Virus record (IMG/VR): IMGVR_UViG_3300027759_003166 | Origin: a virus | Lineage: Duplodnaviria > Caudoviricetes | Length of the DNA stretch: 64,000 nt | Strand: one strand, 5' to 3' | Shown: positions 22,286 to 22,644 of the stretch, in pieces | Layout: every line of letters starts with the position of its first letter | Numbering within the stretch: the stretch's first letter is position 1 | Notes under the pieces: generated by a model | Databases searched by the model: none | What the model was told of the DNA's origin: nothing | What the model saw: the letters and a program-made list of their open reading frames with translations, nothing else | Position numbers and translations under genes: made by a program

Positions 22286-22644
22286 GTCAGACGGAACCGT
22301 TTTGCACGGTTCCGCTTTTGTCTTCATGTGAGTTGTCACAGCCGAGACATTGGAAATAGGTGTTTTTACCGTTATGCTAATGGGCTCTGATCTCTCCCAA
22401 CCTACATCGACTCGCTTAAAAAGCGTCTTAAACCTCGTTCCTAGTGTTTAAGTTTTTATAGCACGGTTTTTCGTATGCTAACATTCATACTATATCAATA
22501 CGTCGAGCATTAGGGTTCGCGCTCTCAGACTCACTTCCAATTTTTCAGGATACTAGGATCTACCTAGGGGAGTGTCTCAATATGTCACGTGTCCGGTTAT
22601 TCCCCGGTTTTTCCACAGCGGTATTACAAACTGGCCCGCCAACC
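22286..22644 (-). ncRNA. Candidate large structured non-coding RNA (~360 nt), family unassigned
   Basis: ORF-free and more GC-rich than its flanks. At least 6 local hairpins, nested long-range helices and a possible pseudoknot. G-U pairs work only on the minus strand. Confidence 0.65.

What the first reader, a model, noticed from the sequence alone, without database searches (positions are those of the whole stretch)
22286..22644. Unassigned ~360-nt ornate structured RNA starting right after the small ORF's stop codon
Seen (minus-strand RNA, plus-strand coordinates). Local hairpins: CCGG/CCGG (22593-22607), CUAGG/CCUAG (22553-22567), UAGCA/UGCUA (22459-22480), CUUAAAC/GUUUAAG (22427-22452), CGCUU/AAGCG (22413-22425), UGUGA/UCACA (22327-22340) and CGGAACCGU/ACGGUUCCG (22292-22314). 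Long-range helices: UUGAGACA (22573-22580) with UGUCUCGG (22342-22349), and UUGGAAGUG (22532-22540) with UAUUUCCAA (22350-22358); their 3' strands are contiguous, suggesting coaxial stacking. UCGAC/GUCGA (22502-22506 with 22407-22411) encloses three hairpins. UCUGA/UCAGA and CUAAUG/CAUUAG cross each other, a possible pseudoknot. 5' GUUGG may pair with 3' CUGAC. Four G-U pairs in the long helices fix the strand as minus. Inference: a large phage ncRNA on the scale of ROOL/GOLLD-type RNAs, or a ribozyme, which I cannot assign to a known family.
Basis: partly seen in the sequence, partly recalled or inferred. Interest (0 to 1): 0.85.

Follow-up and report, generated by a model that had tools for sequence, protein, structure and literature searches.

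The report
New pseudoknotted phage RNA with twin heptamers
The region is a real, strongly conserved, pseudoknotted non-coding RNA gene of uncultured freshwater T4-like phages that no RNA catalogue lists, and it carries two 7-base stretches that always mutate together to stay identical, which no known RNA mechanism explains.

Summary
The finding is real, but it is larger than described and folds differently. The conserved RNA lies on the minus strand from about 22660 to 22268. Further conserved hairpins and a terminator follow, down to about 22187.

- **Conservation:** Homologues occur in more than 180 viral contigs. The RNA is 75-80% identical in nucleotides where the adjacent ORF is only about 54% identical in protein.
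- **Structure:** 86 modelled base pairs are 94.6% canonical, and 57 show double (compensatory) changes. G.U pairs outnumber A.C pairs 871 to 65, which fixes the strand.
Four of the local hairpins and the 5'/3' pairing hold. The two long-range helices, UCGAC/GUCGA and the proposed pseudoknot do not. Three other pseudoknots are supported instead.
- **Known families:** No Rfam family matches.
- **Sister RNA:** A very close relative phage carries a different roughly 390-nt RNA at the same locus. Its 5' domain is the Rfam Polynucleobacter-1 motif. Each genome has one form or the other, never both.
- **Shared 3' module:** Both forms end in a module with two identical heptamers about 55 nt apart. These co-vary by identity, and I found no complementary partner.
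- **Neighbour:** A 142-aa GIY-YIG gene is usually upstream, in 72% of the loci that could be judged.

Function is unknown. The best guess is a trans-acting RNA that displays the twin heptamers as recognition elements.

The parts
22268..22660 (-). Conserved core of the RNA ('type W'), about 393 nt.
   Evidence: Column conservation across 117 unique homologues. nhmmer hits in 181 loci.
22650..22655 (-). 5' strand CUAACA of pseudoknot PK1. It pairs with the loop at 22478-22483 (UGUUAG) of hairpin 22473-22490.
   Evidence: All 6 pairs are 99-100% canonical, with up to 5 pair types.
22616..22641 (-). Hairpin Pa (GGCGG/CCGCU) with a near-invariant 14-nt loop.
22588..22617 (-). Helix Pb enclosing hairpin Pc (CCGG/CCGG).
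   Evidence: Covariation in both helices.
22492..22583 (-). Domain closed by helix Pd (22577-22583 with 22492-22498). It contains Pe, hairpin Pf (22553-22567), Pg and hairpin Ph (22505-22524). Some family members lack this domain in part or in whole.
22473..22490 (-). Hairpin Pi (GUAUG/CAUAC). Its loop forms PK1.
   Evidence: All 5 pairs are 100% canonical, with 2-4 pair types.
22356..22464 (-). Pseudoknotted central domain.
- Pj (22459-22462 with 22376-22379) encloses hairpins Pk, Pl and Po.
- Pn (22401-22405 with 22356-22360) crosses Pj.
- Pm (22406-22408) pairs into the Po loop (22389-22391).
22323..22329 (-). Heptamer A (ACAUGAA), preceded by GUGAC-AACUC.
   Evidence: Each column is 94-99% identical to the column 55 nt downstream, with co-varying variants.
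22292..22314 (-). Conserved hairpin Pq between the two heptamers.
22268..22274 (-). Heptamer B (ACAUGAA), preceded by CUGAC-linker-AAUCU.
   Evidence: The regular expression for the module hits the 64-kb window only here.
22251..22263 (-). Small hairpin with a CUUCG loop after heptamer B.
   Evidence: Stems differ but stay complementary across loci.
22187..22233 (-). Hairpin with a GAGCG..AGCGA loop (22208-22233), followed by a terminator-like hairpin plus U-run (22187-22205).
   Evidence: Read from the sequence. It recurs downstream in many loci and is 98.5% identical in L002.
22928..23356 (-). 142-aa GIY-YIG nuclease-domain gene, the usual upstream neighbour of the RNA.
   Evidence: Pfam SegE_GIY-YIG, E 2.7e-32. 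phrog_447, E 2.5e-37. Present upstream in 81 of 112 unique RNA loci.
22645..22923 (-). 92-aa ORF of unknown family, an optional insert between the GIY-YIG gene and the RNA. Its stop codon lies inside the conserved 5' end of the RNA.

Best explanation
The region encodes a single-copy, stand-alone structured non-coding RNA gene of large, uncultured freshwater T4-like phages.

**Shown**
- The RNA is about 390 nt, or about 470 nt with its 3' hairpins and terminator.
- It folds into a compact multi-domain structure with three covariation-supported pseudoknots.
- It sits at a fixed place downstream of the gp46-like recombination nuclease gene.
- It has an alternative form at the same locus in sister phages, an RNA that starts with the Polynucleobacter-1 motif.
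- Both forms share a 3' module. After the core comes a first unit (helix, GUGAC, linker, AACUC, heptamer), then a hairpin, then a second near-identical unit (UGAC, linker, AAUCU, same heptamer).

**Inferred**
- The RNA acts in trans.
- The two unpaired heptamers are recognition elements, like a guide or a specifier, read in the same way by two copies of one partner that is not linked to the locus.
- The upstream GIY-YIG gene is a frequent neighbour and probably shares a transcript, but it is not an obligatory partner.
For: - **Conservation:** RNA identity is 75-80% where the adjacent ORF is about 54% identical in protein. There are 181 loci and 117 unique full-length copies.
- **Structure:** 86 pairs are 94.6% canonical, with 57 double changes. 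Slid-partner controls give 32-40% and 15-21. Shuffles give 81.5% and at most 44. RNAalifold on 24 diverse members independently finds 27 compensated pairs.
- **Not coding:** No long ORF and no 3-base periodicity.
- **Copy number:** One copy per genome, either the window's form or the Polynucleobacter-1 form, never both. This includes a 331-kb genome estimated 95% complete.
- **Same locus, different body:** A relative with 95-98% identical flanking proteins carries the other RNA.
- **Twin heptamers:** They are identical in 107 of 117 sequences across 12 variants. Shuffling gives a mean of 44 and a maximum of 55. The same holds in the Polynucleobacter-1 form, where mutual information is 0.99 between the two copies and at most 0.35 with any other column.
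- **Module specificity:** It is found on the gene strand in 52 of 80 GIY-YIG loci and on the opposite strand in 0 of 80.
- **Independence from GIY-YIG:** 31 of 112 unique RNA loci lack a GIY-YIG gene upstream. No GIY-YIG residue co-varies with the heptamer. Cultured phages carry the GIY-YIG gene without the RNA.
Against: - No partner complementary to the heptamers was found in the RNA, in the flanking loci, or in four phage genomes.
- Seven bases is short for a specific guide.
- No transcript data exist, so the ends of the RNA and its independence from the upstream mRNA are inferred. In most loci the upstream ORF's stop codon lies inside the RNA's 5' end.
- Identity could instead reflect two processing sites or an unusual tertiary contact.
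Confidence: 0.45

Rival explanations
1. The RNA is a self-processing ribozyme or intron-like RNA. The pseudoknotted core would cut, and perhaps rejoin, the RNA at the two equivalent sites (YYY followed by the heptamer). This would excise or circularise the roughly 55-nt hairpin segment. The sites are identical because one active site reads both.
For: - The fold is highly pseudoknotted and large for a bacterial or phage RNA.
- Two equivalent sites flank a discrete hairpin at a nearly fixed spacing of 47-59 nt.
- Pyrimidine triplets precede both sites, and the core carries purine-rich loops (inference).
Against: - No Rfam ribozyme or intron family matches.
- No internal guide complementary to the heptamers exists.
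- No flanking exons of a split gene were found.
- No family member was seen with a single heptamer, as an excised allele would look.
Confidence: 0.15
2. The RNA is a cis element of a mobile GIY-YIG cassette. It would be the nuclease mRNA's 3' region, controlling its stability or expression. The diverse bodies and heptamers would exist mainly to make the carrier genome immune to cleavage. This resembles the T4 mobA cassette, whose 50-nt insert in gene 60 is flanked by matched codons.
For: - The GIY-YIG ORF, or a small ORF after it, ends inside the RNA's 5' end in most loci.
- The nuclease gene plus the RNA is the segment that differs between two otherwise near-identical phages.
- The heptamers change quickly between close relatives.
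- The T4 analogy is from my own knowledge.
Against: - 28% of RNA loci have no GIY-YIG gene.
- The same GIY-YIG family occurs as one copy in 317 cultured phages without this RNA.
- About 390 nt of covarying structure held across more than 100 variants is far more than a UTR or an immunity spacer needs.
- No nuclease residue co-varies with the heptamer.
Confidence: 0.15
3. The heptamers are tRNA-binding sites in the manner of a T-box specifier: a codon followed by a purine. The RNA would bind or sense a particular tRNA, mostly tRNA with a CAU or UAU anticodon.
For: - Positions 3-5 read AUG or AUA in the great majority of both RNA forms, otherwise AGA, AUC, CAG, GUC or GGG. Position 6 is A in 114 of 117 sequences.
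- These phages carry 12-41 tRNA genes. A genome with an AUA heptamer has a tRNA-Ile(UAU).
Against: - Rfam T-box does not match.
- tRNA anticodon loops do not explain the co-variation at heptamer positions 1, 2 and 7.
- No element matching the tRNA 3' end was identified.
Confidence: 0.08
4. The RNA is a cofactor or guide of the adjacent GIY-YIG nuclease, by analogy with HEARO/omega RNAs of IscB and TnpB.
For: - The nuclease domain lacks a DNA-binding domain (142 aa).
- The RNA starts at the end of the nuclease ORF, as TnpB omega RNAs do.
- A short variable 'programmable' segment is present.
Against: - The RNA occurs without the nuclease, and the nuclease without the RNA.
- Both heptamers lie inside the swapped cassette, not at its border.
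- No co-variation between protein and heptamer was found.
- The heptamer matches the carrier's own DNA.
Confidence: 0.05

Closest known systems
Polynucleobacter-1 RNA motif (Rfam RF01718; Weinberg et al. 2010, PMC2864571)
   Same: - In sister phages an RNA that begins with this motif occupies the same locus, right after a homologous GIY-YIG gene.
- It ends in the same twin-heptamer 3' module, and it also has a hairpin loop paired to a (C)UAACAC strand.
- It is mutually exclusive with the window's RNA within a genome.
   Different: - The window's RNA has no match to the RF01718 model, even at E <= 10. Its 5' and central domains are unrelated in sequence.
- Profile similarity is limited to the 3' module (E about 1e-4).
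- The Rfam motif covers only 141 nt and does not include the shared module.
GOLLD and ROOL (large ornate RNAs of phages and prophages)
   Same: They are large, intricately folded, phage-borne RNAs found mainly in environmental sequence, with unknown function (my own knowledge).
   Different: Neither matches in Rfam. The window's RNA is smaller, has a different architecture, and carries the twin-heptamer module.
HEARO / omega RNAs of IscB and TnpB
   Same: A structured RNA is encoded next to, and overlaps the end of, a small nuclease gene, and it carries a short variable segment.
   Different: - The nuclease here is GIY-YIG, not RuvC or HNH.
- The link between RNA and nuclease is not obligatory.
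- The variable segment is duplicated and internal, not at the element's border.
T4 mobA / gene 60 cassette (homing endonuclease plus 50-nt insert flanked by matched codons)
   Same: A nuclease gene lies beside a roughly 50-nt hairpin-containing segment flanked by short identical sequences that must stay matched (my own knowledge).
   Different: No reading frame runs through the heptamers here, so ribosome hopping cannot be the reason for the match.
Group I introns with free-standing or internal GIY-YIG endonucleases
   Same: A GIY-YIG gene sits next to a 300-400-nt pseudoknotted RNA in a T4-like phage.
   Different: There is no Rfam Intron_gpI match and no split host gene. The helix order differs from P3-P9.

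Membership tests
Polynucleobacter-1 RNA (RF01718) | A covariance-model score at or above the gathering threshold of 37 bits. | tested here: not met
   No hit in window 22100-22800 at E <= 10 or in the whole window or genome. Positive controls: L002 scores 102.5 bits and L004 scores 103.1 bits.
Wider 'GIY-YIG-adjacent RNA with twin-heptamer 3' module' (defined in this study) | Two units (UGAC, linker, YYY, heptamer) with identical heptamers 47-59 nt apart around a hairpin, on the RNA strand. | tested here: met
   There is one hit in the window, at 22268-22338 on the minus strand. The module is also found in 52 of 80 GIY-YIG loci on the gene strand and 0 of 80 on the other strand.
Group I intron (RF00028) | A covariance-model match, plus flanking exons of an interrupted gene. 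| tested here: not met
   No match at E <= 10. Upstream ORFs end in a stop codon, and downstream genes vary in identity and strand.
Group II intron (RF00029 and the D1-D4 families) | Domain V, and a covariance-model match. | tested here: not met
   No match. The 3' hairpin lacks the domain V bulge.
ROOL, GOLLD, HEARO, RNase P, 6S, T-box | A match to the Rfam covariance model. | tested here: not met
   None appears among the matches up to E = 10.
tmRNA / tRNA-like | Detection by ARAGORN or Rfam. | tested here: not met
   ARAGORN finds 0 genes in the window. Rfam finds none.
Self-cleaving or self-splicing ribozyme (any class) | Catalytic activity. | not testable with these tools
   This needs in vitro assays.
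Nuclease guide RNA (omega-RNA-like) | Obligatory co-occurrence with the nuclease, and a guide matching sequence outside the element. | tested here: not met
   31 of 112 RNA loci lack the nuclease. 317 cultured phages have the nuclease, and the two checked lack the RNA. Both heptamers lie inside the swapped segment.

The most novel reading that the evidence does not exclude
The twin heptamers, together with the flanking blocks that co-vary with them, are a rapidly evolving, programmable specificity determinant of a new kind of RNA machine. Two forms of this are possible. One is a new ribozyme class that cuts and joins at two matched sites. The other is an RNA that directs a trans-acting process, such as targeting, repair or recombination near a GIY-YIG nuclease, through base recognition that requires two identical reads.
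Probability: 0.15. Interest if true: 0.95.

Novelty: new variant of a known kind. Interest (0 to 1): 0.8.

Why it matters
Large, intricately folded RNAs with strong covariation are rare outside ribosomes, introns and RNase P, and past examples have turned out to be ribozymes or large RNA assemblies. Three things follow from this one.

- It is abundant in freshwater phage metagenomes and is single-copy in genomes of up to 331 kb.
- It shows that the Polynucleobacter-1 motif, listed in 2010 with no known function, is only the 5' domain of a larger phage RNA.
- It reveals a module in which two short sequences co-vary by identity rather than by complementarity. Standard RNA pairing rules do not predict that signature, and in other systems it has marked guide/target or take-off/landing relationships.

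The RNA offers a defined, testable object for finding a new RNA function in phage infection.

Tried and rejected
- **Rfam:** Searched at gathering and permissive thresholds. There was no family for the region.
- **Cultured phages:** blastn of the RNA against 50,697 phage records found no match. Cultured phages with the GIY-YIG homologue (Melnitz, P-HM1) lack the RNA.
- **Single-sequence folding:** The z-scores are not significant.
- **Coding potential:** Tested under stop-codon reassignments and by periodicity. No signal.
- **Partner complementary to the heptamers:** Nothing consistent was found.
  - Searched within the RNA.
  - Searched within 3 kb on either side in about 150 loci.
  - Searched in the window and in four phage genomes.
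  - Two TTCATGTGGG hits lay in unrelated contexts, probably a shared peptide motif.
- **Other links to the heptamer:** The link with the loop of hairpin Ph is only phylogenetic. No GIY-YIG residue co-varies with it.
- **tRNA anticodon loops:** At best 5 of 7 bases pair.
- **Group I P/Q/R/S-like strings:** Spotted by eye, but they lie in the wrong order and sit inside helices, so I dropped them.
- **Small ORFs through the heptamers (ribosome hopping):** Rejected, because in-frame stops lie just upstream.
- **Full-length covariance model:** Not built, because the tool's size and time limits exclude a 390-position model. I did not use the count of structure pairs, to avoid typing a long structure string. 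Equivalent controls were scripted instead.

Full report
**What is there.** The window is part of an 80.6-kb viral contig of a T4-like phage. It carries a gp46-like SbcC-type ATPase and a T4 baseplate protein. The finding lies on the minus strand in a roughly 490-nt gap without ORFs, between a 92-aa ORF (22645-22923) and a 188-aa ORF (21585-22151). Upstream of the 92-aa ORF is a 142-aa GIY-YIG gene (Pfam SegE_GIY-YIG, E 2.7e-32).

**Is it more than chance?** Folding the single sequence is not informative: z = -1.3 on the minus strand and -2.2 on the plus strand. Comparison with homologues is decisive.

- Three contigs found through the 92-aa ORF share only 53-54% protein identity in that ORF, yet 75-80% nucleotide identity over the whole non-coding stretch.
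- nhmmer recovers the RNA in 181 loci, giving 117 unique full-length copies.
- Conservation runs from about 22660 to 22268.
- There is no long ORF under any stop-codon reassignment and no 3-base periodicity.

**Structure.** Mutual information and pair counting support 18 helices.

| Measure | Observed | Partners slid 1-3 columns | Column shuffles |
|---|---|---|---|
| Canonical pairs (86 modelled) | 94.6% | 32-40% | 81.5% (max 82.0%) |
| Pairs with both sides changed | 57 | 15-21 | 38.8 (max 44) |

G.U pairs number 871 against 65 A.C, which fixes the minus strand. RNAalifold on 24 diverse members independently finds 59 pairs, 27 of them compensated.

The main elements, in window coordinates, are as follows.

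- **PK1:** 22650-22655 pairs with the loop at 22478-22483 of hairpin 22473-22490.
- **Hairpin 22616-22641:** it has an invariant 14-nt loop.
- **Helix and hairpin at 22588-22617.**
- **Domain 22492-22583:** closed by 22577-22583 with 22492-22498.
- **Central domain 22356-22464:** helix 22401-22405/22356-22360 crosses helix 22459-22462/22376-22379, and 22406-22408 pairs into the loop of hairpin 22381-22399.
- **3' hairpin 22292-22314.**
- **Closing helix:** the 5' GGUUGG can pair with the 3' YCUGAC (96-100% canonical, one-sided changes only). RNAalifold prefers AGGUU with AAUCU. The closing helix is therefore unresolved.

Four local hairpins and the 5'/3' pairing hold up. The two long-range helices, UCGAC/GUCGA, UAGCA/UGCUA and the proposed pseudoknot do not.

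**Downstream of 22268.** Three further elements recur in many loci:
- a small CUUCG-loop hairpin whose stem covaries;
- a hairpin with a GAGCG..AGCGA loop;
- a terminator-like hairpin with a U-run.

**The twin heptamers.** Columns 22329-22323 and 22274-22268 (ACAUGAA in the window) are 94-99% identical to each other across the family, although the sequence itself varies. There are 12 variants, for example ACAUAAA, GCAUAAU, GGAUAAU and ACAGAAA. The two copies are identical in 107 of 117 sequences, against a mean of 44 and a maximum of 55 after shuffling.

- Each heptamer follows a (C/G)UGAC motif, a linker and a pyrimidine triplet. The triplet is always CUC in the first unit and UCU in the second.
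- In the sister RNA, the GUGAC motif and the 2-3 bases before the triplet also change in step.
- Close relatives differ at heptamer positions 1-2 in both copies at once.
- No complementary partner was found in the RNA, the loci, the window or four phage genomes.
- No GIY-YIG residue tracks the heptamer.
- Positions 3-6 are mostly AUGA or AUAA. A codon-plus-purine (T-box-like) reading is possible, but phage tRNA loops do not explain the other positions.

**Context and relatives.** A GIY-YIG homologue lies upstream in 81 of 112 unique RNA loci that have enough flanking sequence, with or without a roughly 90-aa ORF in between. The last ORF's stop codon usually falls inside the RNA's 5' end. The other 31 loci have ORFs of unknown family instead. 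Downstream genes vary in identity and strand.

Contig L002 shares 95-98% protein identity in the flanking genes. After its GIY-YIG gene it carries a different roughly 390-nt RNA whose first 137 nt match Rfam Polynucleobacter-1 at 102.5 bits. L004 shows the same arrangement.

Among the 80 closest GIY-YIG relatives:
- 48 are followed by this second form and 1 by the window's form;
- 8 have too little downstream sequence to judge;
- the remaining 23 include further body variants and cases with an ORF inserted after the nuclease gene;
- the twin-heptamer module is on the gene strand in 52 and on the other strand in none.

The second form also has a hairpin loop paired to a (C)UAACAC strand, with 6 of 7 pairs covarying. 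Profile similarity between the two forms is limited to the 3' module. Each of five genomes has exactly one copy, of one form or the other.

The RNA is absent from cultured phage genomes. Among 185,579 prokaryote genomes it occurs only on two contigs, both in metagenome-assembled Bacteroidota bins. The GIY-YIG family itself is widespread. It occurs as one copy in 317 cultured T4-like phages, often mislabelled NAD synthetase, and the two records checked lack this RNA.

**Interpretation.** The existence, extent, strand and fold of the RNA are shown. So are its single-copy status, its alternative form and its frequent but non-obligatory link to the GIY-YIG gene.

Function is inferred. I favour a stand-alone, trans-acting RNA that presents two identical single-stranded elements to two copies of one partner not linked to the locus (confidence 0.45).

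| Rival | Confidence |
|---|---|
| Self-processing ribozyme using the two sites as matched junctions | 0.15 |
| Cis or immunity element of a nuclease cassette | 0.15 |
| tRNA binder | 0.08 |
| Nuclease cofactor | 0.05 |

The co-variation by identity itself remains unexplained.

**Novelty.** This is a new RNA family. It is a sister of the larger RNA that contains the Polynucleobacter-1 motif, and it carries a shared module that I found described in neither the literature searches nor Rfam.

Noticed in passing
window 11876-11956 (-): This is a full-length match to the Rfam freshwater-2 RNA motif (RF02980, 73.3 bits against a gathering score of 49.9). It lies just upstream of ORF 10985-11878 (-).
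   Followed up: no
L002:2542-2678; L004:1119-1254; G003:C1:136561-136697; G004:C1:53903-54039: The Rfam Polynucleobacter-1 motif is only the 5' domain of a roughly 390-nt RNA. That RNA follows a GIY-YIG gene in T4-like phages and ends in the twin-heptamer module. The Rfam family appears to be truncated, and the RNA is phage-borne.
   Followed up: partly
window 23357-23884 (-): A SAM-dependent methyltransferase ORF (phrog_32762, E 7e-56) sits between the 107-aa ORF region and the GIY-YIG gene. It is absent at this spot in the near-identical relative L002, so it is a recent insertion or deletion.
   Followed up: partly
window 22208-22233 (-) and many loci downstream of the RNA: A hairpin recurs whose loop holds a direct repeat (GAGCG-NN-AGCGA), followed by a terminator. 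It is conserved even where the RNA body differs, and is 98.5% identical in L002. It may be a separate regulatory or protein-binding element.
   Followed up: partly
window 22928-23356 (-); 317 records in the phage collection: The 142-aa GIY-YIG family (phrog_447, T4-like gene cluster 213) is a single-copy gene in many cultured cyanophages and other T4-like phages. It is widely annotated as 'NAD synthetase', which looks like a propagated misannotation.
   Followed up: partly
window 39430-55215 (+): A single ORF of 5261 aa lies among presumed structural genes. It was not examined.
   Followed up: no
G001 (331,654 bp, 95% complete); G003: Phages that carry the RNA can be very large. They encode 23 tRNA genes (G001) and 41 tRNA genes (G003), clustered in one region.
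   Followed up: partly
window 22639-22645 and 22397-22403 (-): The heptamer AGGUUGG occurs twice, once at the 5' end and once in the central pseudoknot domain. Both copies could in principle pair with the AAUCU or AACUC elements that precede the twin heptamers. The columns are invariant, so this cannot be tested by covariation.
   Followed up: partly
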